Shown here one piece after another: positions 3,092 through 58,102 of a DNA stretch of 64,000 nucleotides. The stretch covers positions 128,001-192,000 of the forward strand of contig CAVVYZ010000002.1 of assembly GCA_963752595.1 (NCBI GenBank). The letters run 5' to 3'. Every line of letters starts with the position of its first letter. The stretch's first letter is position 1. The DNA is from an uncultured delta proteobacterium (GTDB lineage Bacteria; Desulfobacterota; Desulfomonilia; UBA1062). The translations under genes were made by a program, and so were the position numbers. Below the pieces are notes generated by a model. It did no database searches and had not been told where the DNA came from. It saw nothing but the letters and a program-made list of their open reading frames with translations.

Positions 3092-3916
3092 ATGAGCAGT
3101 ACAACGCTTTTTCTCATTCCAACACCTATCGGCAATTTGAGGGATATAACATTACGAGCCCTCGATGTGCTGAAAGAGGTAGATCTGATAGCCTGTGAGG
3201 ACACCAGGCACACACGCAAGCTGCTGTCTGCATATGGGATCCACAAGCCGCTTGTTTCGTATGAGAGATTCAGCGAGATGAAAAAAATTTCTCTCATCAT
3301 AGAGGCCCTGGAGGCAGGGAAAAACGTTGCATTGGTGAGCGATGCGGGCACCCCGCTGATCAGCGATCCGGGATCTGTGCTCATATCCCACGTCCGTGAG
3401 AGAGGTTTACGGGTAGAAGCGCTTCCGGGCCCCAGTGCAGTAATCACAGCCGTGTCAGCATCCGGGTTCGGGGGTGGATTCCGGTTTATCGGATTTTTCC
3501 CGAGACAGAAGAGCGTTGCCGAGCGTGAGACGATCAGAATGGCTTTGTCCTCAGAGCATACTGTTTTTTACGAGTCTCCGCACAGGATAATGGCTACTTT
3601 GAAGCTCCTGGAAAAGAATGTAAACGACAGAACCATATGCCTGGCACGCGAGATATCAAAGATACATGAGGAGTACCTTGTCGGCCATGCAGGAGATCTG
3701 ATCGAGAAACTCAAGGACAAGAATCCGATCGGTGAGGTTACCGTGATCGTCAAAGGGTCGTCCCAAGAGGATTCGCTCGATGAAAGTGCATTGAAAGAAA
3801 GGGCAGTCTCCCTCATCAAGGCTGGCCACACAAAAAAAGATGTGCTTCGAGTGCTCTCCGAGGAAACAGGAATAGGAAGAAACAGAATTTATGAAATATT
3901 ACTCACATTGCAGTAA
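3092..3916 (+). CDS. rsmI: 16S rRNA (cytidine1402-2'-O)-methyltransferase
   Basis: LFLIPTPIGNLRDITLRAL, ACEDTRHT, VSDAGTPLISDPG, FYESPHR, AREISKIHEE; start trimmed to ATG 3092. Confidence 0.93.
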   Translation: MSSTTLFLIPTPIGNLRDITLRALDVLKEVDLIACEDTRHTRKLLSAYGIHKPLVSYERFSEMKKISLIIEALEAGKNVALVSDAGTPLISDPGSVLISHVRERGLRVEALPGPSAVITAVSASGFGGGFRFIGFFPRQKSVAERETIRMALSSEHTVFYESPHRIMATLKLLEKNVNDRTICLAREISKIHEEYLVGHAGDLIEKLKDKNPIGEVTVIVKGSSQEDSLDESALKERAVSLIKAGHTKKDVLRVLSEETGIGRNRIYEILLTLQ

Positions 3917-3940
3917 AGGTTTTTTTTTGCATGCCGATAA
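3914..3940 (+). promoter_or_regulatory. Sigma-28 (FliA)-type promoter
   Basis: TAAA(3914-3917)-N15-GCCGATAA(3933-3940), exact canonical consensus, 32 nt upstream of ATG 3973. Confidence 0.85.
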
Positions 3941-3972
3941 AGGATTTGTAGAACTCCGGGAAGGGGAAACGT

Positions 3973-4236
3973 ATGAAAATAAATTCTGAAATATCGAATG
4001 TTATTAATCTGGTGAAGAAAGAGGAAGATTATCAGAAAAAGACAAGGGAGAAAGAGGAAAGCCAGGATAGGGTTACTGATATCGTATCCGTAGAGAATAG
4101 GGCAGCTTCCCGCTCCGATGTCGAGAATGTTGAGGAGGCCCGTGTATTGTTATCAGATGTTATGAAGGGAATGGAAAAATCTACATCATCCCCGCATAAC
4201 CTCAACCAATACAGGATTTCTCAGCTTATCAGTTAA
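3973..4236 (+). CDS. Small hypothetical protein with flagellin C-terminal-like segment
   Basis: 87 aa ORF with GGGGA SD and a sigma-28 promoter; ENRAASRSDVENVEEA...HNLNQYRISQLI resembles flagellin C-terminal ENxxAAxSRIxDxD...QxVLxLL. Confidence 0.7.
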   Translation: MKINSEISNVINLVKKEEDYQKKTREKEESQDRVTDIVSVENRAASRSDVENVEEARVLLSDVMKGMEKSTSSPHNLNQYRISQLIS

Positions 4237-4256
4237 TATCTTGCCAAGTTAGATCC

Positions 4257-4288
4257 GGGGGAGAGACGAATCATGGATACTCTCCCCC
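4257..4288. terminator. Hairpin between convergent genes (possible terminator)
   Basis: GGGGGAGAG(4257-4265)/CTCTCCCCC(4280-4288) 9-bp inverted repeat; no clear U-tract. Confidence 0.4.
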
Positions 4289-4318
4289 ATCCGTACTATT
4301 TCCACATCCGATCATCTC

Positions 4319-5407
4319 TTATTTGTGAGCGGATCCATCCGGCTGTTCTGGTGAATCCGTGCTTTTCGTCTCACCAAGATGCTTTATCCGGTTGAGATCC
4401 CGAGTTATTTCGGGCATGAGGACGCTTTCCATCTTTGGGGCCTTTTTGATGTACCGATAATAATCATCGCCGATATAAATGCCTGATAGTTCCTGCGTGA
4501 AATTTTTAGCGGCTATATCGGATATACTCAAGATTGCTAATTCCTTCATAGTGTCGGGAGAGATCTGTCCGACTTCCCGCAACGGCCAGAACAGGGGCCA
4601 GTGGTGCTGCGCAATAGCCTTGCTTAACTTGTCCGGCATTCTCCACTGTCTTGCCAGTATGCCGCCTAAGGCTGCATGATCAATGCCGTAGAATTCCGTT
4701 TCCTGTCTCAGCCTCTCCCTGGGATCAGAGGAAAAGCCTCCCTCTGGCTGAGAAAGGGATCTGGCCATTATGGTCTTGGCAATATCATGGAGCATTCCCA
4801 GGGTAACCATGGTACCTCCTGGTACACCAATCCTTGCCGTGCTTGACAGGTATGCTGCGATAGTGGATGTGAGATTCGCATGAATCCATTCTTCGCGAGT
4901 CGGCTTGATTCCGATTCTGGAAGCCCTTTCCTCCATAACGATCCTGTAGATTTCGTTGTATCCGAGAATAACTATGGCATTAAAAATGTTGTCAACTTTC
5001 TGATAAAGGCCATAATAAGGGGAATTCACACGCTTTAAAATAAAAGACGTGAGACCCTGGTCTGTTATGATGAGCTTGCTGATCTCTTTCGGATTGATAT
5101 CCGGGTCGTTGAGCTTTGACGAGAGCTCGGTAACCAGGGGTGATATCGATTCGATGCCGTTAATTACCTTTGCTATACGTTCCGGCACCTCTTTGGACAG
5201 CTCTCTATCAGGTTTCCAATCAAGGTTATATATATTCATGAATGCATCGTCGATATTATCGTTCGTTGATATGCTGACATAGTGAGCAGCTGATTTCTTT
5301 AACGGAGGGGAGGCCTTCTCTGCCATAAGCTTAACTGCAACGACAGCTGCAGTGATACATATGACCGCATAGAAAATTATCCAGAAAAGATGTCCCATTT
5401 CCATCAT
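4319..5407 (-). CDS. HDOD domain protein with N-terminal transmembrane helix
   Basis: DQGLTSFILKRVNSPYYG, AIVILG, GMLHDIAK, GIDHAALGGILARQWRMP, AIAQHH; hydrophobic N-terminus. Confidence 0.85.
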   Translation of the reverse strand: MMEMGHLFWIIFYAVICITAAVVAVKLMAEKASPPLKKSAAHYVSISTNDNIDDAFMNIYNLDWKPDRELSKEVPERIAKVINGIESISPLVTELSSKLNDPDINPKEISKLIITDQGLTSFILKRVNSPYYGLYQKVDNIFNAIVILGYNEIYRIVMEERASRIGIKPTREEWIHANLTSTIAAYLSSTARIGVPGGTMVTLGMLHDIAKTIMARSLSQPEGGFSSDPRERLRQETEFYGIDHAALGGILARQWRMPDKLSKAIAQHHWPLFWPLREVGQISPDTMKELAILSISDIAAKNFTQELSGIYIGDDYYRYIKKAPKMESVLMPEITRDLNRIKHLGETKSTDSPEQPDGSAHK

Positions 5408-5413
5408 CTTAAC

Positions 5414-5441
5414 TTATCGGGAATATAAAAATCCCTCTTAA
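5414..5441 (-). promoter_or_regulatory. Sigma-28-like promoter (likely leaderless)
   Basis: Minus strand TTAAG-N15-CCCGATAA, 6 nt before ATG 5407. Confidence 0.65.
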
Positions 5442-5581
5442 ATATAATTTCTCACAGGTTCGCTATTGTCAATAAGGATCCAGGGTTTGATCAACGGAAG
5501 ATATCAAGGAACGGTTAGGGCAACCGGCTTTATTATGGAAATATCACCGAAGTATTTCAAGAGAAACATGGTGAAAGGGTG

Positions 5582-5609
5582 TAAAGAAAGCAACCCATAT
5601 TTCCGAATG
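5582..5609 (+). promoter_or_regulatory. Sigma-28-like promoter (likely leaderless)
   Basis: TAAAG-N15-TCCGAATG, 8 nt before GTG 5618; shares TAAAGAAA-N11-TTCCGAAT with the site at 56679. Confidence 0.6.
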
Positions 5610-5617
5610 ATTCACTA

Positions 5618-6514
5618 GTGGAAGGAAAACTCTATCCAGATCAAAATAAAGAGCATGTCTTTAAGCTTCTTTCGAGGTGTAAGGACATACTCGACCTGCC
5701 TCCTGTCATGAAAGGCATCCTGGAAGTGACATCCGGGAAGAATTCCTCTGCTTCGAACCTCATTACCCTGATCGAAAAAGATCCTGTGCTGTCTACAGGT
5801 ATCATCACCATGGCAAATTCCCCATACTTCGGTTTTTCAAAAAAGGTAGCTGCTGCTTCCAATGCAGTAGCTCTATTAGGATTCAAAGAGATACGGAATC
5901 TTGCATTAAGCATATCCGTTGTTCGTTTATTCGATCAGAAAAGTTCGGATATTCTGGATAAGCTCTGGAGACACAGTTATGCCGTGGGTTTGGCTACCCG
6001 GATGGTTGCAGGATATTTCAAACTCAAGATCGAGGGGAGGTTCTTCGTGGCCGGGCTCCTCCATGACATCGGGAAGGTATTTCTCTGCGAATACCTCCCC
6101 GGGAAGTTCAGGGAAATGTTATCCATGCTGGAGAGGAATGACAGCAAGATCACCTATCATGCGCTGGAAAAAGCCTTTTTCGGAACATCCCATACCGATG
6201 TTGCAGTGAAGCTCCTTGAAACATGGAATTTTCCGCAAGATATCATGGATGCGATCTCATGGCATCATGAGCCATCACGGGCACAGTCGGATCGAGTCCT
6301 GGCTGCATGTGTCCATATGGCAGATCTGATCTGCACGTATAAATCCTTATCGCCTCTGGGTGATCGTCATTTCTTAAGCATTCAAAAGGAAATACTGCCT
6401 GTCCTTCAAGGATTGAGGGAAAACTTCTCTTCAGAAGACATAAGGATTCTCATGGGACAGCTCGATCTTGAGATAGACAGGCAAAGCGCATTTGTTTCAG
6501 CCTATAAGCGCTGA
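5618..6514 (+). CDS. HDOD domain protein
   Basis: LPPV, IEKDPVLSTGIITMANSPYFG, AVALLG, LWRHS, AGLLHDIGK, HTDVAVKLLETWNFP, AISWHHEP. Confidence 0.88.
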   Translation: MEGKLYPDQNKEHVFKLLSRCKDILDLPPVMKGILEVTSGKNSSASNLITLIEKDPVLSTGIITMANSPYFGFSKKVAAASNAVALLGFKEIRNLALSISVVRLFDQKSSDILDKLWRHSYAVGLATRMVAGYFKLKIEGRFFVAGLLHDIGKVFLCEYLPGKFREMLSMLERNDSKITYHALEKAFFGTSHTDVAVKLLETWNFPQDIMDAISWHHEPSRAQSDRVLAACVHMADLICTYKSLSPLGDRHFLSIQKEILPVLQGLRENFSSEDIRILMGQLDLEIDRQSAFVSAYKR

Positions 6515-6554
6515 TCACAACACGCCCCTTTATACTTCTCAAAGCAAACGATCC

Positions 6555-7748
6555 CTAGGCAAGGAGTCTGCTCAGGAGCGTATACCCGTTCTCGACGAAT
6601 ATGCCGGATTGAGAGGCATCTTTTTCATTGAATCCCCAGTCGTTGTCCCTGGGACTTGTACTGTCATATATGACAAACGGCACCGGGTTTGAAGTATGCG
6701 TTTTCTTTGCTATGGGTGTGGGGTGATCGGGAAGCAGGAGAACCCTGAAAGGTTCAGACCGCTCTTCCATACTCGTCAAGATCTGCCCGACAACCATTTC
6801 GTCAAAACTCTCGATTGCCTGGATCTTCTCACGGATAAGGCCCGCATGCCCTGCTTCATCAGGGGCTTCCACATGCACGAATGCCATATCAAGATCCGAG
6901 AGTGACTTTAGCGCTGCCTGAGCTTTGCCCGAATAATCGGTATCTATCCAGCCGGTGGCGCCCGGGACTTTGATTACTTCCATACCCCTGAGAATGCCGA
7001 GGCCTTTCAGGAGGTCGACGGCAGATATCATACTCCCTGAAATGCCGTACTCTTTCTGCAACGTCGGGACCTTCAGTCCCTTTCCTTCACCCCATGGCCA
7101 TATGGATGTGGCCTCTTTCTTGCCCTGGCTCCTCCTGAGGAGATTGACAGGGTGATCCTTGAAGACTTCCATGGATCTCTCCATGAGGCCCTTTAACAGC
7201 TCATCATTCGGGAGAAATGGATCAATATACTCTCCGGTTATGTCGTGGGGAGGTTTTGTTTTCAGGTCCGGATTTCCGTATCCGTTCACTACCATAAGGT
7301 GCCGGTATTCTATCCCAGGATAGACGCTGATGCCCCGGTATTCGCGTACGATTCCCTTCAATGCCTCTATAAGCTCCCTGGCCTCCTTGGTCGATATATG
7401 GCCCGAAGAGTAATCTTCCATTATCAGGCCTTTCTCACGCCGGCCCAGTGTGACCAGGTTGATCCTGAAGGCGGTATCGTCTTCTTTCAAATGTACGCCC
7501 ATACTGGTCGCTTCGATGGGAGCCCTGCCGGTATAATAGAGGCTCGGGTCGAGCCCGAGGACAGACATATTCGCCACATCACTGCCGGGGGGAAATCCCG
7601 GCTTTACGGTACGGACCATCCCCAGCTCCCCGCGTGCAGCCAGTCTATCCATGTACGGGGTATTGGCAACATCGAGTGGAGTCCTGTTTCCAAGCTCTTC
7701 AATAGGCTCATCTGCCATTCCGTCACCGAGTAGTATAATGCTCTTCAA
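6555..7748 (-). CDS. apgM: Cofactor-independent phosphoglycerate mutase family (ApgM type; proposed homoserine kinase group)
   Basis: LLGDGMADEP, TPYMDRLA, PPGSDVANMS, YTGRAPIEA, HVEAPDEAGH, LPDHPTP, THTSNPVPF; downstream of hom. Confidence 0.85.
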   Translation of the reverse strand: MKSIILLGDGMADEPIEELGNRTPLDVANTPYMDRLAARGELGMVRTVKPGFPPGSDVANMSVLGLDPSLYYTGRAPIEATSMGVHLKEDDTAFRINLVTLGRREKGLIMEDYSSGHISTKEARELIEALKGIVREYRGISVYPGIEYRHLMVVNGYGNPDLKTKPPHDITGEYIDPFLPNDELLKGLMERSMEVFKDHPVNLLRRSQGKKEATSIWPWGEGKGLKVPTLQKEYGISGSMISAVDLLKGLGILRGMEVIKVPGATGWIDTDYSGKAQAALKSLSDLDMAFVHVEAPDEAGHAGLIREKIQAIESFDEMVVGQILTSMEERSEPFRVLLLPDHPTPIAKKTHTSNPVPFVIYDSTSPRDNDWGFNEKDASQSGIFVENGYTLLSRLLA

Positions 7749-7841
7749 AATCTCTTCCTCCGCCCCAGGTAATAAGCCTAAACAATATCTTAAGGCTTTA
7801 ATACCTTTCCTGTGCCTGCTTTGCGGGCAGAAACAGGAGAT

Positions 7842-9164
7842 TTATGAATTTTTTTTCAGATTCCTGTCTTCAACCCTGATGACAACCGGTTTGCCCCCGA
7901 CTTCCTCAAGGGCTTCGACCTCTTTCATGGCGTTTCTGACGTTCGATTCTTTTGCCTCATGGGTGAGCAGGACGATAGAAACATGCCCGTCCATGAGCAC
8001 GCCCTTCTGAATAACGGAAACGATGCTGATGTCCCTGTTCCCGAGGATACCGGATATTTTTGCAAGGACCCTGGGTTTATCCTGTACCTGGATCCTCAGG
8101 TAGTAATTGGTAACAATGTCATCGATCGCCATATACCGCTTCGGTCTGGAAATATCTTTCCGGTAACCGAGGTGCGGAATCCTGCCTGCAATGCCTGCAA
8201 GGATGTTTCTGCCTATGTCGGCAATATCGCTCACTACAGCAGATGCAGTGGGCATCATGCCTGCTCCCCTGCCGTAGAAGAGGGTTGAATCAACGATATC
8301 TCCCCGTACATAGAAGGCGTTGAAAACGCCGTCCACCTTGGCAAGGAGGTAATTTAAGGGGACGAGGGTGGGATGGACCCGGGCCTCCACCTGGTCACCG
8401 CGATCAATGGTCAGGGCGAGCAGCTTCACCTTGTATCCAAGTTCGCGCGCATACCCTACATCGAGATTGTCAAGAGTGGAGATACCTTCAACATAAATGC
8501 CCGACATATCGGGCGGCACGCCATAGGCAAGGCTCGTGATGATAGCCAGCTTATGGGCGGAATCCACACCTTCCACATCCATGGTGGGATCGGCCTCTGC
8601 ATAGCCGAACTCCTGGGCTTTTTTCAAGGTATCCCCGAAAGAAGAACCTTTTTCGCTCATCTCGGTGAGGATGAAGTTGCAGGTACCATTAAGAATCCCA
8701 TAGATGAACTTGAAGTTGTTCGCAACGAGTGATTCTCTCAGGGCCTTGATGATGGGCACTCCTCCGCCCACTGACGCCTCGTAGTAGAGATCTTTTCCGT
8801 ACGTCTGCGCCGCGTCGAAGAGTTCTTTGCCCTTGGAAGCAAGTAGGGCCTTGTTCGCTGTCACGACGTGCTTGCCGGACTTCAGGGCACCCAGAATGAA
8901 TGTTCTGGCCGGTTCAATCCCGCCGATGAGTTCAACGACGATATCGATATCGGGATTAGTGATAATCGTGTTCGCATTCGTGGTGAGCAGTCCTTTGGGT
9001 ATGGCGATGCCCCGGTCTTTCTCGATGTCGATATCTGCAATGGCAGTCAATTCCAGGGAAAAGCCCAGACGCTCTTCGAGAAGGGCCGTATTCTCCAGAA
9101 TGGTCTTGGCTACACCGGTCCCGATGGTTCCCAGACCGATCATTCCTATTCTGATCTTATCCAT
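7842..9164 (-). CDS. hom: Homoserine dehydrogenase with C-terminal ACT domain
   Basis: GLGTIGTG, HVVTANKA, YEASVGGGVP, GILNGTCNFIL, GYAEADP, GRGAG..PTASAV, ACT domain (YYLRIQVQDKPRVLA). Confidence 0.95.
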   Translation of the reverse strand: MDKIRIGMIGLGTIGTGVAKTILENTALLEERLGFSLELTAIADIDIEKDRGIAIPKGLLTTNANTIITNPDIDIVVELIGGIEPARTFILGALKSGKHVVTANKALLASKGKELFDAAQTYGKDLYYEASVGGGVPIIKALRESLVANNFKFIYGILNGTCNFILTEMSEKGSSFGDTLKKAQEFGYAEADPTMDVEGVDSAHKLAIITSLAYGVPPDMSGIYVEGISTLDNLDVGYARELGYKVKLLALTIDRGDQVEARVHPTLVPLNYLLAKVDGVFNAFYVRGDIVDSTLFYGRGAGMMPTASAVVSDIADIGRNILAGIAGRIPHLGYRKDISRPKRYMAIDDIVTNYYLRIQVQDKPRVLAKISGILGNRDISIVSVIQKGVLMDGHVSIVLLTHEAKESNVRNAMKEVEALEEVGGKPVVIRVEDRNLKKNS

Positions 9165-9253
9165 ATATTCTCCTCTTGTGTCGCAAAGGAATCATTCCGG
9201 CAGCATTTTGACTGCCTGTGAAGCCCCCGTTTCATTGGAAAATGAGAGCCTCA

Positions 9254-11140: not shown

Positions 11141-11206
11141 TTCGTAATTTTAAGATCTCTCAAGGGAGAAAGGATACCTTTTACAGTCATCTTAAAGACC
11201 CTTCTC

Positions 11207-12464: not shown

Positions 12465-12651
12465 TCTTATCCTCCCAATGTACAATTGTCTTGCAAGATA
12501 GCACTCTTCTCGGCCTGAAAAAAGAATATCCTTAAGTAACATGCTTTACAAGGGTAGTTCCTGCTCTCTGCTTGACACATCATTACAAAAAACATAGACA
12601 AGGAAGGGCCGCTCGCCTTCAGCTGCGGTTCGATGCGGAGAATCTTAAAAG

Positions 12652-13443: not shown

Positions 13444-13478
13444 TAATTCGTAGTATACGATGAAATCAGGATGCGCAT

Positions 13479-24218: not shown

Positions 24219-24246
24219 TAAAGAACGGGAAGCGTTATGACGATAG
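24219..24246 (+). promoter_or_regulatory. Sigma-28-like promoter (likely leaderless)
   Basis: TAAAG-N15-GACGATAG, 8 nt before in-frame ATG 24255. Confidence 0.6.
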
Positions 24247-24254
24247 TTTTGGAT

Positions 24255-24602
24255 ATGAGACGATACAATGTTTACACATTCATGCCGGGCATGGGAAGAT
24301 ACGAGATCATCAAAGAAAACCAGAAACAGTCCGGACGATCAGAAGAGGATTACTGGAATGAATGTTTTTCCTGGGAAGACTTAAAAAAAATCGTCCCGTT
24401 TTTGCGATCTCAGGGATGGAAGGTAACCATCGAACCATTGATCAGAGAAGATGCGTTCGGTAAAATACACATTTTTTCGTTCACTTATGGTATCAACCAT
24501 GATTTCAGGATCTTGAATATATCAGGAATACGGGTCATCATAGCCCGGGATTTCGGTATCCACAGATCATTAAAAGAGTCTTTTAATCCAATAGGGTATT
24601 GA
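24255..24602 (+). CDS. Hypothetical protein (115 aa)
   Basis: ORF fills the radA-IHF gap; start moved to ATG 24255 because ATG 24237 overlaps the promoter motif. Confidence 0.6.
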   Translation: MRRYNVYTFMPGMGRYEIIKENQKQSGRSEEDYWNECFSWEDLKKIVPFLRSQGWKVTIEPLIREDAFGKIHIFSFTYGINHDFRILNISGIRVIIARDFGIHRSLKESFNPIGY

Positions 24603-44857: not shown

Positions 44858-44866
44858 GAGTGCAGG

Positions 44867-46105: not shown

Positions 46106-46177
46106 CGTGATCACTGCCGTTGCGCAGGAACCGGCTATAAAAGCAAGCAGCTACCCTTTCATCCTCTCAGGGGTTCG

Positions 46178-47581: not shown

Positions 47582-47729
47582 GGATGGCTCCCCGTTCTTG
47601 TATTATTTCCTGATGCTATCACTTATACCTGCCTGAAGAAATTTATTCTGCAGGTAACATAAGCTTTTCATCCAGTTGCCTGGTCGATCGAATCCTGCTT
47701 GCTGATTTTACAAAAGGAAATTTCGATCC

Positions 47730-49284: not shown

Positions 49285-49352
49285 TTAAGCATGATGAAGA
49301 ATACACAGGATTTTCTTCCGGAGCAATCTTTTAAGCCCCGGAAATGACGAAC

Positions 49353-50171
49353 CTAGAAGGTGAGGGTGCCGGTAAAGATGAAGGACACTTCTCCAGTAAG
49401 CCATACATCTCGATACTCTCCATTATGCGTTGTAAATTCTATCTTCAGATTTCCTCCGGGCATATTCACCTGTACGGGAGCCCCGGTTACATTTCCGGTT
49501 GCATGGCTGACGATGGCAGAGGCTATGGCACCTGTTCCGCATGCAAGGGTCTCGGCTTCAACGCCCCGCTCGTACGTGCGCACCCTGATCCGGTCGGGCC
49601 CGACCGCCTGAACGAAATCCACATTGGTCCCGGCCGGCGAAAAGCGGGAATGCGTTCTGACCGTTCTTCCCAATGTGTCTACAGGGACCGCATCGAGGTC
49701 GTTCGTAAAAAGGATGGCATGGGGGACACCGGTATTGATGAAATGCACATCGGCAGTTCCGTCATCGATGCTGATGCTGATATCCTTACAGAGGTCGCGC
49801 GGCTCGGTTACCCTGATAGATACATCTTCTGGGTTTACCTTTGCCTCTACGATCCCTGCCAACGTATTGAACCGCATGGACGAGCCGGCGATGTTATGCT
49901 TCAAGGCATATGCTGCCGCGCAGCGGGCACCGTTGCCGCACATCTCAGCCTCGCTTCCGTCCACATTGAAAATCCGGTAATTGAAGTCGACCGAATCGCT
50001 CGGGCCGAGCACCAGAAGGCCGTCCACCCCGACACCGGTTCGCCTGGGACAGTATTTCCCGGCAAATCCTGCCCAATCCATATCAAAGGCAAGTCGATAG
50101 GCATCGACGACAATGAAATCATTGCCGGTTCCGGACATCTTGGTAAATTCTATGGTGCGGTCATTCTCCAT
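49353..50171 (-). CDS. dapF: Diaminopimelate epimerase
   Basis: FTKMSGTGNDF, AEMCGNGARC, NTGVPH, RTYERGVEAETLACGTGA. Confidence 0.96.
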   Translation of the reverse strand: MENDRTIEFTKMSGTGNDFIVVDAYRLAFDMDWAGFAGKYCPRRTGVGVDGLLVLGPSDSVDFNYRIFNVDGSEAEMCGNGARCAAAYALKHNIAGSSMRFNTLAGIVEAKVNPEDVSIRVTEPRDLCKDISISIDDGTADVHFINTGVPHAILFTNDLDAVPVDTLGRTVRTHSRFSPAGTNVDFVQAVGPDRIRVRTYERGVEAETLACGTGAIASAIVSHATGNVTGAPVQVNMPGGNLKIEFTTHNGEYRDVWLTGEVSFIFTGTLTF

Positions 50172-50344
50172 ACTTCTTTTTAGGACCTCTCATGTAAAAG
50201 CCGGAATCCAAATCATAAAGTTGTATTGTATCCGTCTGGAGTGTGCATGCATTAACAGACTCTCTTTTTTAAGTCAAGGAGATTGGGGCACAGGCAGGAA
50301 AACAGCGGCCCTTCCATGCACGCTGTGACTTTTGCGACATATTA

Positions 50345-51571
50345 TCAGGCTGCCAGTGCCTGACCGATTCTCTCCATGGCCTCGCGGACATTTTCGAAAT
50401 TATTGAAAGCGCTGATTCTGATATACCCTGCACCGCACTTCCCGAAACCTTCCCCCGGTGTGCATACGACACCGGCCTTCTGGAGGAGGAGGTCGAAGAA
50501 TTTCCAGGAGTCCGTCTTCGTATTCACCCAGATATAGGGGGAATTCTCGCCGCCGGTGCACTCATAACCAAGCTCGATCATCTTCGTGCGGATATGGGCG
50601 GCATTATTCAGGTAATAATCAATGAGGTCCGATACCTGCCTTTTCCCTGCAGAGCTGTAAACAGCCTCTGCTGCTCTCTGAACGGGATAGGATACACCGT
50701 TGAACTTCGTGGTCTGGCGCCTGTTCCACAGGGCATGGAGCGGATGCCTGCTGCCGGCGCTGTCATAAGCGCAGCAGGTTTTGGGGACCACGGTAAATGC
50801 GCACCTGGTCCCGGTGAACCCTGCGGTTTTCGAGAAGCTCCTGAATTCGATCGCCACTTCCCGGGCGCCTTCTATCTCATAAATGGAGCGGGGCAGCTCA
50901 TTGTCCCGGATAAAGATTTCATATGCGGCATCGAAGAGGATGAGAGCCTTGTTCTCATGGGCGTATCTTACCCACTGAGCCAAACGGTCTTTTGTGATCG
51001 TTGCACCGGTCGGATTGTTCGGAAAGCACAGATAGACGAGGTCAACCTTTTCCTTCGGGAGGCCGGGGACAAAGCCGTTCCCGGCGGTGCTATCAAGGTA
51101 TGCGATGTTTCCGTACCGGCCGTCTCTCAAGCTCCCTGCCCTGCCTGCCATCACATTCGTATCCAGATACACGGGATATACCGGGTCGGGGATCGCCACC
51201 TTGATGTCTCCGGCGAAAAGCTCCTGGATATTTGCCGTGTCGCACTTTGCCCCGTCACTGATGAATATCTCGTCGGCAGACACGTTTGCATTGCGGGAGC
51301 GGTAATCGTTTTCTGCAATGGCCTCTCTGAGAAATTCATAGCCCTGTTCGGGACCGTATCCTTTAAACGTGCGCCCATCGGCCATTTCGTCGACCGCCTT
51401 GTGCAGTGCTTCGATGCAGACTCCGGGAAGCGGGAGCGTGACATCGCCGATGCCCAGCTTGATGACCTTGTTTTCCGGGTTCCGGTCCTGGAATGCTGCA
51501 AGGCGTTTTGCGATCTCCGAAAAGAGATATGATGATTTAAGATCAAGATAACTCTCGTTAATTTTAATCAT
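50345..51571 (-). CDS. dapL: LL-diaminopimelate aminotransferase
   Basis: [59 protein letters not shown]. Confidence 0.95.
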
Positions 51572-51696
51572 GACTGCAATTACCTCATTTTCTCTCGATT
51601 TTTCCACCGCACCCGGCACATAAAGGGGAATGGTTTTTTGGTTTATCTAACATACCTGATTTGCTTTGTGGAATAGTTTCTCGCTGAATATAGGTA

Positions 51697-51724
51697 TTAA
51701 GAAATAAAAGAAATATGTCGAATA
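51697..51724 (+). promoter_or_regulatory. Sigma-28-like promoter
   Basis: TTAAG-N15-GTCGAATA, 32 nt upstream of GTG 51757, which has a GGAG SD. Confidence 0.55.
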
Positions 51725-51756
51725 ATACTATCACAGAAACCAGTAATGGAGCCAAA

Positions 51757-52113
51757 GTGAAAAAGGACAAGAGAAGACATTCCAGAAAGCTGCTGCGAAT
51801 CGAAGCCAGGTACCAGGATCCTCAGACCAAGGTATTGAAGGGAACGGTTCGGAATATAAGCCTCAGCGGTGTGTTTATCGAGACACCGAACCCTTTGGAT
51901 ATGCAAACTGTAGTGCATGTCAGCCTTGATGCGAAGTATCTCGGCAAGGTTATCGATGTTACCGGCAAGGTGGTAAGGGTCGAAGAGAATAGGGGAATGG
52001 CCATCCAGTTTGAAGACCGGGAGAACCGCGATATCCGGCTCCTCCTCGGCGCGCTGAGAAGGCTGGATCAGGCCTCTATGCTTGCGCTGAGCCGCTCCGC
52101 CCTGGGTGACTGA
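51757..52113 (+). CDS. Single-domain PilZ protein (c-di-GMP receptor)
   Basis: RxxxR (KRRHSR) and NxSxxG (NISLSG), GKVVRV, GMAIQF; GTG 51757 preferred over ATG 51715. Confidence 0.85.
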   Translation: MKKDKRRHSRKLLRIEARYQDPQTKVLKGTVRNISLSGVFIETPNPLDMQTVVHVSLDAKYLGKVIDVTGKVVRVEENRGMAIQFEDRENRDIRLLLGALRRLDQASMLALSRSALGD

Positions 52114-52205
52114 AGATCTCAACTTGGCAGTGCTTATCCTAAAAACAGCAGCTTTGCTTACCTTCTTGAAATAGAGCATTACCCTTAAACAGCTCTCTCG
52201 AATAC

Positions 52206-52246
52206 AAAAAGGCATCCCCTTTTAGAATCGGGGATGCCTTTTCTTT
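52206..52246. terminator. Bidirectional intrinsic terminator
   Basis: AAAAAGGCATCCCC...GGGGATGCCTTTT inverted repeat with A/T tails between convergent genes. Confidence 0.85.
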
Positions 52247-52297
52247 GCATGATCAGTTGGGTGCGGATCACGCCTCCCGTTCTATAACGGGGGTGAA

Positions 52298-53026
52298 TCA
52301 AAGTTTTGAAAGAAGTCTCTTTGCCCAATCGCTGAAATATGTTTCGTTGGAGGATGAAGCCCTCTGGAGCACTGACTTTGCCTCATCCGTATTATTGGTG
52401 TCTATCAAAACTTCTCCGAGGAAGACCTGGCCTTCAGCGTCATTCGGGAAGAGCTTCTGGTATTCCCGAAGATAGGTGAGCGATTTTTCCTTGTTGTTCA
52501 AAGGCCAGGGAAGCACATACCAGAAACGTCCCAATGCCTTGATCGGGCCTCCGTTGTCATACATCTTGTTGATGGAATAAGACTTCTCGAAGCTCGACTG
52601 GGTTTTATCCTTCAACCCTTCCTTCAGGGCAGTGAGGATGCTCACGCCGTCTGAATAATTTCCTACTGAGCAGCCATACCAGAAATTTCCCTCGATCTTG
52701 TTCGGTTCCAGCGCGATCGCCTTCTCTCCGTAGTTCATTGCAACCTGCCCGTATTTCTTGCAGGTGTCCTGCCAGCCGCTGACATCTTTCTCCTTGGATT
52801 CGTTGCAGTACTCGCGATACGCGTGGCAGGCCTTCCAGGCAGCCTCATAGCTTTGCGGGCTTGCATCCGAGGCCTGTGCATACAGGTCGCCCGCTTTCAG
52901 AAGGTTATCAACGCCTCCCTGTTCAAACAACGAATCGGCCTTGACGATCGTTTCATCCGCCCTGGCATAGCCGGGCAACATGAAAACTATGTATAACAGG
53001 AATACTCCTACGAGAACTCTCCTCAT
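52298..53026 (-). CDS. Exported TPR-like protein
   Basis: Signal peptide ending ARA, helical repeats (KAIALEP...GNFWYG, ALGRFWY.LPWP, GQVFLGEVL); GGAGGG SD before ATG 53026. Confidence 0.72.
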   Translation of the reverse strand: MRRVLVGVFLLYIVFMLPGYARADETIVKADSLFEQGGVDNLLKAGDLYAQASDASPQSYEAAWKACHAYREYCNESKEKDVSGWQDTCKKYGQVAMNYGEKAIALEPNKIEGNFWYGCSVGNYSDGVSILTALKEGLKDKTQSSFEKSYSINKMYDNGGPIKALGRFWYVLPWPLNNKEKSLTYLREYQKLFPNDAEGQVFLGEVLIDTNNTDEAKSVLQRASSSNETYFSDWAKRLLSKL

Positions 53027-53325
53027 GGTACTACACCCTCCTTCATAAAATATTATTGATATACATAGTATAATGCTCACAGCAGGTTATCAAGAGGGGG
53101 AGGATAGGCATAAATCCTAAGAATTAATAGTCAATTGAAAATAAATAGAAACGTTGAGAAATGAACACTTGCTGTGCATATTAAAGCTGTATGAAGCGGT
53201 TGGGGAAGGCAAGGGACAGGAAAGGTGTCATGTCCCTGATGATAAGTCATTTTTTCACCTTGCAATATTACACAAATAAGCGTACCACGCTTGTAATGCC
53301 GTATGGTGACCCCTTTCCTCAACTC

Positions 53326-53667
53326 ATGGATATGAAAGGGATTGCAGTAGAGCTTCCTTTTCTGCGCTTCAAATATGTCAACATCAAGGGCAGCCCCTCC
53401 CAGAAAACATATTCAGACAATAAAGTAAGCGTTCTGCCTTCTTCGGAGAAGCTCTGCCAGCAAACAGAACCCATCCGGATCAACTACACGCAGGCCGAGC
53501 CTGAAGAGATATCTTCTTTGGGCATCGATCCGATGGTATCCAGCGCATCGGTTATCCATGAGCTTGCCTATGGCAGGCCGGCCAAAAAAACGCAAGTTTC
53601 AGGAAGTGTTCAGGAATATCCGGTCCCGAGGGAATTCCGGCGGCACGATCTGGACATCGTCGTGTGA
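53326..53667 (+). CDS. Hypothetical protein ending LDIVV
   Basis: Open frame directly upstream of the deacetylase gene; start uncertain (53326, 53332 or 53296). Confidence 0.5.
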   Translation: MDMKGIAVELPFLRFKYVNIKGSPSQKTYSDNKVSVLPSSEKLCQQTEPIRINYTQAEPEEISSLGIDPMVSSASVIHELAYGRPAKKTQVSGSVQEYPVPREFRRHDLDIVV

Positions 53668-53682
53668 AGAGCTGAATCAGGC

Positions 53683-54702
53683 ATGATCGGTATCGTCTCA
53701 GACCCCGTCTTCATGAAACACGACACCGGCGGATATCATCCCGAGAGCCCTTTGCGGATCCAATACCTTCACACCCTCTTTGCCCCGAAGAATGACCCGC
53801 AGATTCTGCTCCTGGATCCTGTGCCTGCAACGATCGAAGATATTGCGCTGAACCATGGCCGGGCCTATATCGACATGATTTCCCGCACCGCCTTGTCAAA
53901 TGCCTCGGTAGATCTGGACCCTGATACGGTGTGTTGTCCGGAATCATATCACACCGCGCTGCTCGCGGCAGGATCGCTTGTGGAACTTACCAGGATGGCC
54001 CTGGAAGGCGAGATTCAGACAGGGCTCGCCTGTGTAAGGCCCCCGGGGCATCACGCGAGGAAGAATGACGCCATGGGGTTCTGCATCTTCAACAATATAG
54101 CCATCGCGGCATCCAGGGCAATAGAGTCCTTCGGTGTCGAGAAGGTCGCCATCATCGATTTCGATGTCCACCATGGGAATGGGACCCAGGAAAGCTTCTA
54201 CGCAAGAGACGATGTGCTCTATTTCTCCACCCACCAGTATCCTTTCTATCCGGGTACCGGCGCCGTATCGGACACCGGTTCGGGAGAAGGGAAGGGATAT
54301 ACCGTGAACTGCCCCATGCAGGGAGGGAAGAACGACGGACACTACGCGGCCGTTTACCGCTATATTCTCAAGCCGGTCATCGAGGCCTTCGAGCCCGAAC
54401 TGATCCTGGTATCGGCAGGCTTCGACGCCCATGCCATGGACCCGATCGGCGGGATGCAGCTCAGCTCCCGCGGGTTTGCAGACATTACCTCGACCATACA
54501 GGACTCCGCGCATGAAGTGGGTGCCCCGGTGGTCTATGCACTCGAGGGAGGCTACAATCTGAACGCCCTGAAGGAGTCCGTGTCCCATATGATCGGAGCG
54601 CTGAAGGGGGACCGGGCCCCTGTGATCGACCCGGTACCTTTCCCTGAGCTGGAGACATTCATAAATACTCAAGCTCATATGTGGCCGCTTGTATTAAGGT
54701 AA
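53683..54702 (+). CDS. Histone deacetylase-family (Zn-dependent) deacylase
   Basis: HPESPLR, RPPGHHA, GFCIFNN, DFDVHHGNGTQ, SAGFDAH..DP, LEGGY. Confidence 0.93.
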   Translation: MIGIVSDPVFMKHDTGGYHPESPLRIQYLHTLFAPKNDPQILLLDPVPATIEDIALNHGRAYIDMISRTALSNASVDLDPDTVCCPESYHTALLAAGSLVELTRMALEGEIQTGLACVRPPGHHARKNDAMGFCIFNNIAIAASRAIESFGVEKVAIIDFDVHHGNGTQESFYARDDVLYFSTHQYPFYPGTGAVSDTGSGEGKGYTVNCPMQGGKNDGHYAAVYRYILKPVIEAFEPELILVSAGFDAHAMDPIGGMQLSSRGFADITSTIQDSAHEVGAPVVYALEGGYNLNALKESVSHMIGALKGDRAPVIDPVPFPELETFINTQAHMWPLVLR

Positions 54703-54704
54703 GT

Positions 54705-54732
54705 TTAAGTTTCCTATACTTATTGCCGAAAG
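54705..54732 (+). promoter_or_regulatory. Sigma-28-like promoter (likely leaderless)
   Basis: TTAAG-N15-GCCGAAAG, 7 nt before ATG 54740; no SD. Confidence 0.65.
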
Positions 54733-54739
54733 GCCTTGT

Positions 54740-55483
54740 ATGTTAGAGCCGAGGATTATCGAGGCGGTTTCAGTTAAGGAATATCGGCCTGGAGAGGTCA
54801 TTGTACGGGAGGGCGACTCCAACCAATACTTCTACGCGATACTCCAGGGAGAGGTGCAGATCTACCAGATGGAAAAGCCCATCCGCATCCTCACCGACAG
54901 AGACGTGTTCGGCCTCGAGAACTATTATCGCGGCATTCCCTACAGCACCACGGCAAAGTCGACAAAGGTCTCTCGCATCGCCACGTATGAATCCGATTGC
55001 ATCGAAGACATCGTTTTTTCGAAGCCGGGACTGGTGAGCATGGTCTTGAGGTCTGCTTATCTGCAGCTGGAGCAGACGACGTCGGTCGCAGAATGCAATA
55101 TCCCCTACAGCGAAGTCATCAACCTCGATGTGCGGGAGTATGCGGACGGAGATACCATTATCGAAGACGGCACGTACGGCACGGAGATCTATAAGCTCTG
55201 CCAGGCGGAAGTGGGCCTGGAGGTACTGAAGAAAAACGTCCGTGTAGGCATGATCACGAAGCCGGGAGAATATTTCGGCGAGATGAGTTTTATCCTGAAC
55301 GAACCCAGAGGCGCCACGATCCGTTCCGTAGGCAGGAGCGTTGTCGAGGTTATCCCGGTGGACGAAGGGGGTCTCGAGAGGCTCATCAGCGAGAACCCGG
55401 AAGTTGCAAATAAGATCATCGATGCGCTGGCGCACAGGCTCAAACAGGCCAACCTCATGATTGTAAAAGAGCCGGGAGCCTGA
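54740..55483 (+). CDS. Protein with two cyclic nucleotide-binding domains
   Basis: YRPGEVIVREGD..FYAILQGEV..FG; second domain PGEYFGEMSFILNEPRGATI; no output domain. Confidence 0.85.
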   Translation: MLEPRIIEAVSVKEYRPGEVIVREGDSNQYFYAILQGEVQIYQMEKPIRILTDRDVFGLENYYRGIPYSTTAKSTKVSRIATYESDCIEDIVFSKPGLVSMVLRSAYLQLEQTTSVAECNIPYSEVINLDVREYADGDTIIEDGTYGTEIYKLCQAEVGLEVLKKNVRVGMITKPGEYFGEMSFILNEPRGATIRSVGRSVVEVIPVDEGGLERLISENPEVANKIIDALAHRLKQANLMIVKEPGA

Positions 55484-55494
55484 AAAACAGGATT

Positions 55495-56598
55495 TTAGAT
55501 ACCCTGCGCCCGGTCCAATAACCTGCTTTTCTCCTCGATGAGGGCTTTGATCGCAGGAACGGCTTGAAGGGCTTTTTCCCTCCCTTCGGCAATCGTGCTC
55601 TCTCCTTTGTTGAACTCTAACGCACGGACCTGATCGATCACCGGCTCTATGAGAATATCCGGTTTTATGTACATGAGCATGAGGCGGTTCTTCTGGTATT
55701 GCTGGATATTCGTTGCACTGAGCATGATCTCGAAGATATTGAGCATATCCGCCTTGTCCTTCTTGGTGAAGCTCTTGTTTATCAGAGAACCGATCTTGTC
55801 CCTGCTCTCATGCATCTGATCCTTGAAGGCGGCGAGCAGATCATGGTCACGGACCGGACCGGCCGTGTCGCCCGGTGTGCTCCTGAACATGCCCCGCAGT
55901 CCTTTTATGCCGCCGATTATCTTTTCCGTAGGGAGGGCGGCAAGCATGCGGTCTATGAGCCAGGAAGAAATATCTTCATCCCCTTCTTTTTTCTGGGCTT
56001 TTACGATCGCACTGCTCAGAGAGGAAGAAAGCTTGTCGGGAAGCCTTGAGTGGAGGTTGCACGCGATGGTGATATCGGGCGAGAATGATCTCAGGATATC
56101 CAGGGGCAGGGGGTCCGAGACGCCTCCGTCCGTGAGTATCTGTTCACCGAGGACAACGGGTTTGAAGATCCCGGGCATGGAAATGCTCGCCATCACGGCA
56201 TCGACAAGGAGACCCCGGGAGATGGGCACGATTTCTCCCGTGAGGATATCCGTAGCCACTGCCGTATAGGCAAGGGGGAGTTCTTCTATTCTGGTGTCAT
56301 GAAGCAGCGTCGCGAGGAATTTCCTGGCCCTTTTGCCTGCGAAGAGCCCGGAAACGGGAAAGACCGGATCTGCATAGAAACGCAATGTCTCGATGAAGTT
56401 CAGGTCCGAGATGAGCTCCTTGAAGATCCCGAGTGAGCCTGCTGCGTAAAAGGCTCCTATTGCGGCGCCGGCGCTGGAACCGACGATTATGTCCAGCGGT
56501 ATATTGTTTTCTTTCAGGACATCGAGGACCCCGATATGCGCCCCTCCCATTGCCCCGCCGCTGTCCAGGGCGATCCCGACAATAGGTTTTCTGCTCAT
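55495..56598 (-). CDS. Patatin-like phospholipase
   Basis: SGGAMGGAHIGVL, GSSAG, ASISMPGIF, DGG. Confidence 0.9.
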   Translation of the reverse strand: MSRKPIVGIALDSGGAMGGAHIGVLDVLKENNIPLDIIVGSSAGAAIGAFYAAGSLGIFKELISDLNFIETLRFYADPVFPVSGLFAGKRARKFLATLLHDTRIEELPLAYTAVATDILTGEIVPISRGLLVDAVMASISMPGIFKPVVLGEQILTDGGVSDPLPLDILRSFSPDITIACNLHSRLPDKLSSSLSSAIVKAQKKEGDEDISSWLIDRMLAALPTEKIIGGIKGLRGMFRSTPGDTAGPVRDHDLLAAFKDQMHESRDKIGSLINKSFTKKDKADMLNIFEIMLSATNIQQYQKNRLMLMYIKPDILIEPVIDQVRALEFNKGESTIAEGREKALQAVPAIKALIEEKSRLLDRAQGI

Positions 56599-56678
56599 GG
56601 GTTTTTCCTACTGGATTCATGATGGAGATGCAATTCATTTTAAAGAAACGAGCCGGGAAGGATTAAGATTTCCGGCAG

Positions 56679-56706
56679 TAAAGAAAATCATAAGAAATTC
56701 CGAATA
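56679..56706 (+). promoter_or_regulatory. Sigma-28-like promoter (likely leaderless)
   Basis: TAAAG-N15-TCCGAATA, 7 nt before in-frame ATG 56714; no SD. Confidence 0.6.
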
Positions 56707-56713
56707 TTTTTCT

Positions 56714-58102
56714 ATGGATGCATATTGGCTGGGAAGCTCGCCACTGAAAGGACTGACAGGGATCAAACAGGTGGACACCCTTGACGGAGTATCCGAGAGC
56801 AGCCTGGTATTCGTCGATGACAAGACCCGTATCAGGTGGAAAACGGTCAGCGGCCAGAGGGTATACATCGTATCGGATCTGCCCATATCGACACCTCTGC
56901 CGGACAAGGTGGCAGGCGTTATTCCGCGGGATGTTATGGCCATAAACTCAATCGCGGCATTGTACTCGGAAATGCGCGAATGTTACGATGTGGAGGACAG
57001 GCTCATCAAGGCCCTGAATGAAAAGGAGCTTGCCATCCAGGAAAAGCAAAAAATTCTCCTGCGGGACAGCAAACGATACCAGGCCATGATCAAGAATGCC
57101 ACCGACCTTATTTTCACCCTTGGACCTGCCGGCAAGATCACCTTCAGCAACGAAACCATGAAACGGTACCTTCGCGACGGCCAGGGCTCGCTCATCGAAA
57201 AATCATTCTCCGATTTCGTGGTCGATGAGGACAAGAAAGCCATCACTGATATGGTCAGGAAAGGCTTCAGCAAAGGGGTGCCTACGAAGATCGAGGCAAG
57301 GCTGCACCTCTCCGGGGGAAATACCGGGATCTTCTCGCTGATGAGCACTCCTCTCTCCGAAGACGACCATGTCTATGCCCTCTCCGTAATAGGCCGGGAC
57401 ATTACGGATATACGCGCGATGCAGCATAGGCTTTTCCTCCAGGCAAGAGACCTCACGCTGATGATCAACGGCCTCTCGCACGAGCTGAGAAACCCTCTCA
57501 TGGTCATCGGCGCCTATATGAAGAGGATAGAAAAGAAGGGAAGCTCAAGGCAGGCCGATTCGATACATGGCGCACTGACCGGCATCAATTCATCTATCCA
57601 GAGGATTGAAGAGATGATCGGAAGGATCGAACAGTATGAGGCAATGGTGAAGCAGAAGGTCATATACGCTGAGGTCGATATCCGGGAGCTCATCCGTGCT
57701 GCATTGAAGGTGCACCAGGTGCATGCCAAGGTATCCCTGAAAGGCTGCGCCGGACTGAAAGCGTTCACGGATGCGGATCACATCAGGGCGGCTTTCCTCA
57801 GGATCCTGGAAAATGCCGTTGAGTCAGGCACGGGAAGGATCGATATCCATTTTTCTCACCGTGAAGGGTGCGCCTATGTCTCGATCCGGGATTACGGCCC
57901 GGGTATTTGGGAAGATCCTGAAACCCTGTTCGCGCCTTTCTACTCCGGAGACCCCATGAAGATCGGGCTCGGCCTTACGGAAGCCCGGATTGCCATGGCC
58001 AAGATAGGATCGGACATAGAAATCATTCCTCAGGCCGATCCCGGAGCCGTATTCACCATGAAGATCCTGCTCGACAGGAGAAATTCCTTAAGGGACGAAT
58101 AG
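56714..58102 (+). CDS. Cytoplasmic PAS-domain sensor histidine kinase
   Basis: PAS (ATDLIF...GRDITD), H-box SHELRNPL, N-box ILENA, DYGPGI, LFAPFYS, GLGL; start trimmed to avoid overlap with patatin gene. Confidence 0.85.
   Translation: MDAYWLGSSPLKGLTGIKQVDTLDGVSESSLVFVDDKTRIRWKTVSGQRVYIVSDLPISTPLPDKVAGVIPRDVMAINSIAALYSEMRECYDVEDRLIKALNEKELAIQEKQKILLRDSKRYQAMIKNATDLIFTLGPAGKITFSNETMKRYLRDGQGSLIEKSFSDFVVDEDKKAITDMVRKGFSKGVPTKIEARLHLSGGNTGIFSLMSTPLSEDDHVYALSVIGRDITDIRAMQHRLFLQARDLTLMINGLSHELRNPLMVIGAYMKRIEKKGSSRQADSIHGALTGINSSIQRIEEMIGRIEQYEAMVKQKVIYAEVDIRELIRAALKVHQVHAKVSLKGCAGLKAFTDADHIRAAFLRILENAVESGTGRIDIHFSHREGCAYVSIRDYGPGIWEDPETLFAPFYSGDPMKIGLGLTEARIAMAKIGSDIEIIPQADPGAVFTMKILLDRRNSLRDE

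What the first reader, a model, noticed from the sequence alone, without database searches (positions are those of the whole stretch)
3914..56714. Dispersed sigma-28-like regulon of signalling genes, mostly with apparently leaderless mRNAs
Seen: one bipartite motif, T(A/T)AAG-N15-NNCGA(A/T)NN, occurs with exactly 15-nt spacing before six genes: HDOD (5441-5414, minus), HDOD (5582), orphan (24219), PilZ (51697), tandem cNMP protein (54705) and PAS kinase (56679). A canonical TAAA-N15-GCCGATAA precedes the 87-aa ORF (3914). Two sites 51 kb apart share TAAAGAAA-N11-TTCCGAAT. In five cases an in-frame start codon lies 6, 8, 8, 7 and 7 nt after the -10 box with no usable Shine-Dalgarno. Known: FliA/SigD recognise TAAA-N15/16-GCCGATAA, start transcription about 6-7 nt downstream, and often control chemotaxis and c-di-GMP genes. 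Inference: a sigma-28 regulon whose signalling members are translated from leaderless transcripts. I do not know this to be described for this lineage. It also corrects three start calls.
Basis: partly seen in the sequence, partly recalled or inferred. Interest (0 to 1): 0.8.

Follow-up and report, generated by a model that had tools for sequence, protein, structure and literature searches.

The report
Leaderless sigma-28 promoters in Desulfomonilia

Summary
All seven sites are present; six share TWAAG-N15-NNCGAWNN (6 observed, 0.4 expected in shuffled intergenic DNA). The genome encodes one FliA and FlgM. The motif also precedes flgM, fliS, flgL, cheR and three chemoreceptors, and flagellin in relatives. 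For five window genes, orthologues down to 43-61% protein identity keep the site and a start codon 7-10 nt downstream while the bases between vary. A 7-nt gap puts the A of ATG at +1, as judged from Pseudomonas and Bdellovibrio start sites. No sigma-70 leaderless peak was seen in this genome. Corrections: only 12 of 43 top sites genome-wide have this layout; PilZ, chemoreceptors and MshEN genes have leaders; the first HDOD start is probably 5404, not 5407; cNMP and flgL have SD-like overlaps. Novelty is limited: in a published Bdellovibrio table 21 of 92 FliA starts fall exactly on the start codon, Streptomyces whiH is a precedent, and this scan noted similar layouts in other genomes. No RNA data were available, so leaderlessness is inferred. 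Verdict: a new, well-supported member of a known kind.

The parts
3914..3940 (+). sigma-28 promoter, TAAAG-N14-GCCGATAA, leadered (about 25-nt leader with strong SD)
   Evidence: site kept in 27 of 27 loci with the orthologue, 21 N14 and 6 N15
3973..4236 (+). 87-aa conserved protein of unknown function, SD-led
   Evidence: no Pfam or NCBIfam family; found in 27 of 30 loci; SD -12.0 kcal/mol
5414..5441 (-). sigma-28 promoter TTAAG-N15-CCCGATAA for the first HDOD gene
   Evidence: 30 of 30 orthologue loci
4319..5404 (-). HDOD protein; conserved start is the second ATG (gap 9, predicted leader 1-2 nt); 5407 is an alternative
   Evidence: PF08668; ATG at gap 9 in 21 and gap 8 in 9 of 30
5582..5609 (+). 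sigma-28 promoter TAAAG-N15-TCCGAATG for the second HDOD gene (divergent from the first)
   Evidence: 23 of 24 true orthologues
5618..6514 (+). HDOD protein, GTG start at gap 8
   Evidence: PF08668; gap 7 in 11, 8 in 11, 9 in 1; GTG in 21 of 23
24219..24246 (+). sigma-28 promoter TAAAG-N15-GACGATAG for the 115-aa gene
   Evidence: orthologues
24255..24602 (+). 115-aa family-conserved protein of unknown function (not a true orphan); ATG at gap 8
   Evidence: 34 of 40 family genomes; gap 7-8 in 22 and gap 18-22 with SD in 8 of 30 loci
51697..51724 (+). sigma-28 promoter TTAAG-N15-GTCGAATA for PilZ, leadered
   Evidence: site score above 9 in 27 of 30 loci, no in-frame ATG or GTG at gap 6-11 in any
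51757..52113 (+). PilZ protein, GTG start at gap 32 after GGAG
   Evidence: PF07238; SD -5.6 kcal/mol
54705..54732 (+). sigma-28 promoter TTAAG-N15-GCCGAAAG for the tandem cNMP-binding protein
   Evidence: 34 of 34 checkable orthologues
54740..55483 (+). tandem cNMP-binding protein, ATG at gap 7 (predicted +1)
   Evidence: PF00027 twice; gap 7 in 32 and gap 8 in 2 of 34; pyrimidine before ATG in 30 of 30
56679..56706 (+). sigma-28 promoter TAAAG-N15-TCCGAATA for the PAS histidine kinase (divergent from patatin gene)
   Evidence: 28 of 29 orthologue loci
56714..58102 (+). PAS-HisKA-HATPase kinase, ATG at gap 7 (predicted +1)
   Evidence: Pfam; gap 7 in 24 (one read by eye across a frameshift) and gap 8 in 4 of 28

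Best explanation
These seven conserved sites are likely promoters read by the genome's single FliA (sigma-28), and five of them are predicted to start transcription at, or 1-3 bases before, the start codon, so those mRNAs would be translated without a Shine-Dalgarno leader. Shown: the motif, its fixed spacing, FliA and FlgM genes, the motif before classical late flagellar and chemotaxis genes, and conservation of site and gap across the family. Inferred: FliA binding; +1 at the eighth base after the -10 box; release from FlgM switching these genes on with the motile programme (established model, recalled); initiation by ribosomes binding the 5' start codon directly (established model, recalled). 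About a quarter to a third of the regulon has this layout (HDOD x3, cNMP protein, PAS kinase, a receiver protein, FlgL, FapA, several unknowns); the rest, including flagellin, flgM, fliS, MCPs and PilZ, has ordinary leaders.
For: FliA above cut-off in flhB-flhA-flhF-flhG-fliA-cheY and found in 39 of 40 family genomes. Motif before flagellin in 24 of 25 relatives' loci at score above 11, before flgM, and before fliS, flgL, cheR, three MCPs and three MshEN genes. Fixed gap with variable bases in orthologues: cNMP 34 of 34, PAS 28 of 29, HDOD1 30 of 30, HDOD2 23 of 24. Six genes outside the window behave alike in five genomes from five genera: HDOD3 5 of 5, FapA 5 of 5, receiver 5 of 5, 108-aa 5 of 5, 444-aa 3 of 3 found, FlgL 4 of 4 found, gaps 7-10. 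Motif plus ATG at gap 7-8 versus 13-14: 771 vs 374 in 46 family genomes (45 higher), 338 vs 398 in 45 genomes of the sister family. Position of +1: Pseudomonas fliC -10 box is -15 to -8 (PMC12784957); in Bdellovibrio 18 of 21 exactly leaderless FliA starts have gap 7 and 3 have gap 6 (read by eye); at the leadered 87-aa gene the seventh base is T in 63% and the eighth a purine in 96%. The 115-aa gene is bimodal: gap 7-8 or gap 18-22 with an SD, nothing between. The one PAS orthologue without the site has GAAGGG before its ATG.
Against: No transcript end was mapped for this lineage. cNMP has a possible SD in the -10 box (-7.4 kcal/mol; 50% of orthologues at or below -4.4, against 31% in the null and 69% in ordinary genes) and lies 37 nt behind a same-strand gene. 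FlgL and 8 of 22 short-gap orthologues of the 115-aa gene have AGGA-like runs. HDOD2 orthologues reach -4.4 in 48%. HDOD2 and FapA start with GTG, which is a poor leaderless start in E. coli (recalled). In this genome alone the short-gap peak is modest: 20 starts at gaps 6-10 against 12 at gaps 0-3 and a second peak at 19-21 with a looser pattern. Orthologues are kin, not independent samples. No flagellin gene was found in this 84%-complete assembly.
Confidence: 0.8

Rival explanations
1. The sites are FliA promoters, but protein is made mainly from longer transcripts (read-through or a second upstream promoter) using a weak SD that overlaps the -10 box or the gap; the short FliA transcripts are poorly translated.
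For: SD-like pairing for cNMP (-7.4), FlgL (-7.5) and 8 of 22 short-gap orthologues of the 115-aa gene, all downstream of same-strand genes in this genome; GTG starts in HDOD2 and FapA.
Against: PAS kinase and both HDOD genes are divergent, so there is no read-through, and their SD medians (-2.7, -1.3, -3.6) are at the null median of -3.1. It does not explain why the promoter-to-ATG gap is held at 7 in 32 of 34 cNMP orthologues.
Confidence: 0.13
2. The N15 sites are read by another factor (a different group-3 sigma or a repressor whose operator abuts the start codon), and only the N14 sites are FliA promoters.
For: Spacer classes differ: flagellin (22 of 25), flgM, fliS and the 87-aa gene (21 of 27) mostly use N14, whereas every short-gap gene uses N15. 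One weaker sigma match (60.8 bits, below cut-off) exists in the genome.
Against: Orthologous promoters switch between N14 and N15 (6 of 27 for the 87-aa gene, 3 of 25 for flagellin). The mapped Bdellovibrio FliA consensus TTAAG-N16-CCGATA is the same N15 geometry (PMC3627812). N15 targets include MCPs, cheR and flgL. The motif is not a palindrome.
Confidence: 0.05
3. Chance matches in AT-rich intergenic DNA.
For: The motif is short and was defined from the sites themselves; loose patterns have a large background.
Against: Spacer-specific enrichment outside the window and conservation of both boxes while spacer bases vary.
Confidence: 0.01

Closest known systems
Attack-phase FliA regulon of Bdellovibrio bacteriovorus HD100 (Karunker et al. 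2013, PMC3627812; passages and the TSS supplement read)
   Same: Same promoter geometry (TTAAG-N16-CCGATA); broad non-flagellar regulon; 21 of 92 FliA-marked starts fall exactly on the annotated start codon (4 of 48 non-FliA; Fisher p=0.04), mostly at gap 7 after a pyrimidine; similar share of leaderless targets.
   Different: Bdellovibrio leaderless targets are mostly surface-anchor and hypothetical proteins; here they are signalling proteins (HDOD, cNMP, PAS kinase, receiver) plus FlgL and FapA. There the starts are mapped; here they are inferred. The paper's main text never uses the word 'leaderless'.
Class-3 flagellar sigma-28 (FliA/SigD) promoters, e.g. Pseudomonas aeruginosa fliC (PMC12784957; passages read)
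   Same: -35 TAAAG, -10 GCCGATAA, FlgM present, targets flagellin, flgM, fliS, flgL, chemoreceptors.
   Different: Spacer is mostly one base longer (N15 after TAAAG, against N14); a sizeable subset has no leader.
Streptomyces coelicolor whiH, leaderless from a sigma-WhiG promoter (GCCGACAA) (cited in Zheng et al. 2011, PMC3160421; passage read)
   Same: A sigma-28-family promoter placed directly at a start codon.
   Different: A single gene in a phylum where sigma-70 leaderless genes are common; here it is about a dozen genes in a genome with no sigma-70 leaderless peak.

Membership tests
sigma-28 (FliA) regulon | A FliA-family sigma factor is encoded | tested here: met
   TIGR02479 276 bits, cut-off 189.6, one copy, in the flhB-flhA-flhF-flhG-fliA-cheY cluster
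sigma-28 (FliA) regulon | Bipartite TAAA(G) / GCCGATAA-type promoter with constrained spacing | tested here: met
   Refined matrix T(A/T/C)AAG-N15-(G/T)CCGATA(A/G); spacer-specific enrichment
sigma-28 (FliA) regulon | Motif precedes flagellin, flgM and other late flagellar or chemotaxis genes | tested here: met
   Flagellin in 24 of 25 relatives' loci; flgM; fliS, flgL, cheR, MCPs. Own flagellin not found in the assembly
sigma-28 (FliA) regulon | Anti-sigma FlgM present | tested here: met
   PF04316 58.6 bits at G000:C5:247359
sigma-28 (FliA) regulon | Transcription from the sites depends on FliA | not testable with these tools
   Needs in vitro transcription or genetics
leaderless mRNA | Mapped 5' end at or within a few bases of the start codon | not testable with these tools
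   No RNA run was listed; position inferred from promoter geometry
leaderless mRNA | Start codon at the distance from the -10 box where +1 lies | tested here: met
   Gap 7 for cNMP and PAS, 7-9 for the HDODs and the 115-aa gene, against gap 7 for mapped starts
leaderless mRNA | No Shine-Dalgarno upstream | tested here: inconclusive
   Met for PAS, both HDODs and the 115-aa gene in this genome; SD-like overlap for cNMP, FlgL and some orthologues, though upstream of the predicted +1
sigma-70 (TANNNT) leaderless class | TANNNT peak about 5-8 nt before start codons genome-wide | tested here: not met
   Counts at gaps 5-8 are 9, 17, 12, 3 against about 15-20 elsewhere in 1244 genes; 43, 53, 64, 35 against 60-80 upstream over 4567 candidate starts; a small TGnTANNNT bump at gap 7 (9 against 1-9) is within noise

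The most novel reading that the evidence does not exclude
Leaderless initiation is a selected, FliA-specific second control layer: in a lineage whose housekeeping genes use Shine-Dalgarno leaders, the motile-phase sigma factor splits its regulon into high-output SD-led genes (flagellin, flgM, fliS; N14 spacer) and a leaderless set of low-dose signalling proteins (HDOD, cNMP, PAS kinase; N15 spacer) that respond separately to ribosome state. The FliA-FlgM pair and at least one leaderless target persist in a genus where no flagellar export or flagellin genes were found, so the circuit would have a role beyond flagella.
Probability: 0.25. Interest if true: 0.7.

Novelty: new member of a known kind. 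Interest (0 to 1): 0.45.

Why it matters
It gives a first regulon map for an uncultured Desulfomonilia family, ties three HDOD proteins, a tandem cNMP protein, a PAS kinase and several unknown proteins to the motile programme, and fixes start codons. It also shows that leaderless genes driven by an alternative sigma factor are missed by surveys that look only for the sigma-70 box, a limit Zheng et al. 2011 state themselves. With the Bdellovibrio table it suggests that a quarter or so of FliA targets being leaderless is a recurring and little-discussed pattern, which can be tested in a cultured organism.

Tried and rejected
My first pattern search used the wrong spacer and found 2 hits at chance level; it was replaced. 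No RNA holder was listed for window 50000-59000, which is no evidence either way; read laying was therefore not used. A GNRA-type hairpin at the cNMP site (GCC-GAAA-GGC) was considered and rejected because the downstream arm varies freely in orthologues. The -10 box alone gives no peak at gap 7 genome-wide; both boxes are needed. HDOD2 count: of 30 loci I set aside 6 whose best match was the neighbouring HDOD1 (23-31% identity); one real orthologue (L092) lacks the site and was left out of the tallies. Phylum scan (160 genomes; no matched gap control was run): of 40 hand-picked best-looking hits, 10 open a frame of 150 aa or more and about 6 look like real starts, so the layout may occur sporadically elsewhere but I saw no comparable regulon; this is not evidence of absence. 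The 87-aa protein has no Pfam or NCBIfam family, and the Atlas gave only hypothetical clusters and a weak flagellin C-terminal lead at 0.90; it is not the FlgM, which lies on C5. Literature: searches listed no paper describing a leaderless FliA regulon or this family's promoters (listings and abstract openings only). Passages of PMC5243855, PMC11064477, PMC7438776, PMC11955535 and PMC4183435 were read and did not link leaderless mRNAs to FliA. Subscription papers and bioRxiv supplements were not searchable, and one .doc supplement of PMC3627812 could not be read.
Full report
Source. The window is C2:128001-192000 of a 4.12-Mb, 84%-complete assembly. Named relatives of the cNMP protein are labelled Desulfomonilia, Syntrophaceae UBA6087/UBA1062 or Deltaproteobacteria, so this is an uncultured Desulfomonilia family (f1 in the tool's tables).

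Observation. All seven sites are present. Shuffled intergenic DNA gives 0.43 on average, maximum 3 in 300 (post hoc). Outside the window the spacer is specific: 35 intergenic hits with a gene start within 60 nt for N15, 3-9 for every other spacer from 10 to 21. A matrix seeded on the six sites converges on T(A/T/C)AAG-N15-(G/T)CCGATA(A/G) and gives 38 such hits at score 15 or more, against 1-6 for other spacers. Gene calls in these counts come from my own dicodon model, not a standard annotator.

Which sigma. One FliA lies above the family cut-off in a flhB-flhA-flhF-flhG-fliA-cheY cluster; FliA was found in 39 of 40 family genomes; FlgM is present. Among 40 genes picked from the scored list, Pfam names FlgL, FliS, FlgN, FapA, CheR, three MCPs, three MshEN proteins, an HDOD, receiver, STAS and PAS kinase proteins, along with unrelated-looking transport and metabolic genes that may include false sites. 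No flagellin was found in this assembly, but in relatives 24 of 25 flagellin loci carry the motif at score above 11, about 120-150 nt upstream, with a GAGGA SD. flgM carries it too. The mapped Bdellovibrio FliA consensus has the same geometry (PMC3627812). This is a sigma-28 regulon on every test I could run.

Orthologues. cNMP gene: 34 of 34 checkable loci (of 35 matches; one is cut by a contig end) keep the site, with ATG at gap 7 in 32 and gap 8 in 2, down to 61% protein identity; the seven bases vary except the last, a pyrimidine in 30 of 30 tallied, against 63% for ordinary genes. PAS kinase: 28 of 29, gap 7 in 24 and 8 in 4, down to 43% identity; the one locus without the site has GAAGGG before its ATG. 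First HDOD: 30 of 30 loci shown (31 matches), conserved ATG at gap 9 (21) or 8 (9), so the start is probably 5404. Second HDOD: 23 of 24 true orthologues, gap 7-9, GTG in 21. The 115-aa gene is no orphan (34 of 40 family genomes) and is bimodal in the 30 loci shown: gap 7-8 in 22 (SD median -2.9) or gap 18-22 in 8 (median -8.1), nothing between. PilZ and the 87-aa gene are leadered in orthologues. Six candidates outside the window keep gaps of 7-10 in up to five genomes of five genera.

Where +1 lies. The Pseudomonas fliC -10 box is numbered -15 to -8 (PMC12784957), so gap 7 is +1. In the Bdellovibrio supplement 21 of 92 FliA-marked starts equal the annotated gene start, and by eye 18 of these have gap 7 and 3 have gap 6, all with a pyrimidine before A (one 'yes?' row left out). 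Inside this family the leadered 87-aa promoter shows T at the seventh base (63%) and a purine at the eighth (96%). I infer exactly leaderless mRNAs for cNMP and PAS kinase and leaders of 0-3 nt for the other short-gap genes.

Breadth and limits. Motif plus ATG at gap 7-8 outnumbers gap 13-14 by 771 to 374 in 46 family genomes (45 higher) but not in the sister family (338 to 398; 15 of 45 higher); kin are not independent. In this genome only 12 of 43 N15 sites scoring 15 or more with a downstream gene have a start at gap 6-11, so 'mostly leaderless' describes the window, not the regulon. There is no sigma-70 leaderless peak, and 69% of unambiguous genes have an SD at -4.4 kcal/mol or better. 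Against the clean picture: cNMP, FlgL and 8 of 22 short-gap orthologues of the 115-aa gene have SD-like runs upstream of the predicted +1 and lie behind same-strand genes, so they may also be translated from read-through mRNA. The divergent PAS and HDOD genes cannot be, and their SD energies are at the null. A hand-picked look at 40 hits elsewhere in the phylum gave about 6 plausible starts.

Mechanism. Shown: motif, spacing, FliA, FlgM, target set, conservation. Inferred: FliA holoenzyme, freed from FlgM once the hook-basal body is built (recalled model), transcribes late flagellar genes with SD leaders and a set of signalling genes whose mRNAs begin at the start codon and are initiated by direct ribosome binding to the 5' end (recalled model). 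Confidence 0.8. All short-gap genes use N15, while flagellin, flgM, fliS and the 87-aa gene mostly use N14; orthologous promoters interconvert, so one sigma probably reads both.

Comparison and novelty. FliA regulons with signalling targets are well known. A sigma-28-family leaderless gene is documented (whiH; PMC3160421), and the Bdellovibrio table shows about the same leaderless share, though that paper's main text does not mention it. Earlier notes of this scan report the same layout in Bdellovibrio-like bacteria, an Acidimicrobiales lineage and phages (unchecked, except the Bdellovibrio paper they led me to). My ten literature searches listed nothing on this family's promoters or on a leaderless FliA regulon. 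New here: the lineage, the signalling targets, the leader-gain or leader-loss switch between orthologues, and the contrast with an SD-led genome. Verdict: new member of a known kind, interest 0.45.

Noticed in passing
Genus g9 (G019, G027, G034, G061); L179-L181, L355-L358: In four 93-97% complete genomes neither FlhA nor a flagellin/FlgL domain was found, yet fliA is kept in a small flhG-fliA-cheY-X unit, a longer, diverged FlgM-like gene keeps its own sigma-28 site (3 of 4 over the cut-off), and the cNMP gene keeps its gap 7-8 site in the three checked. How FlgM would be released without export is open.
   Followed up: partly
L100-L125, L070-L099, L353-L358 versus short-gap genes: Spacer classes: flagellin, flgM, fliS and the 87-aa gene mostly use N14; every short-gap gene uses N15.
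   Followed up: partly
window 3973-4236 (+): 87-aa protein conserved across the family with a near-consensus sigma-28 promoter and strong SD; no family match; weak Atlas lead to flagellin C-terminal domains. Possibly an abundant late flagellar or secreted protein.
   Followed up: partly
G000:C2:322962-323288 (-): 108-aa unknown protein with a top-scoring site and ATG at gap 10 in 5 of 5 orthologues; no Pfam or NCBIfam family.
   Followed up: partly
G000:C13:139445 (-): A 648-aa gene with TCAAG-N15-AACGATAA and ATG at gap 8, a further candidate whose N-terminus looks HDOD-like by eye; not tested.
   Followed up: no
G000 whole assembly; G004, G003, G009: Only FlgL, no flagellin, was found in this assembly and in some close relatives; may reflect incomplete assembly.
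   Followed up: no
PMC3627812 supplement 3: 14 of 20 FliA starts that map inside annotated Bdellovibrio genes are a multiple of 3 from the annotated start, suggesting more leaderless genes with mis-called starts.
   Followed up: partly
L256-L285 (PilZ orthologues): In some genera the PilZ gene appears as a tandem two-domain protein in one open frame.
   Followed up: no
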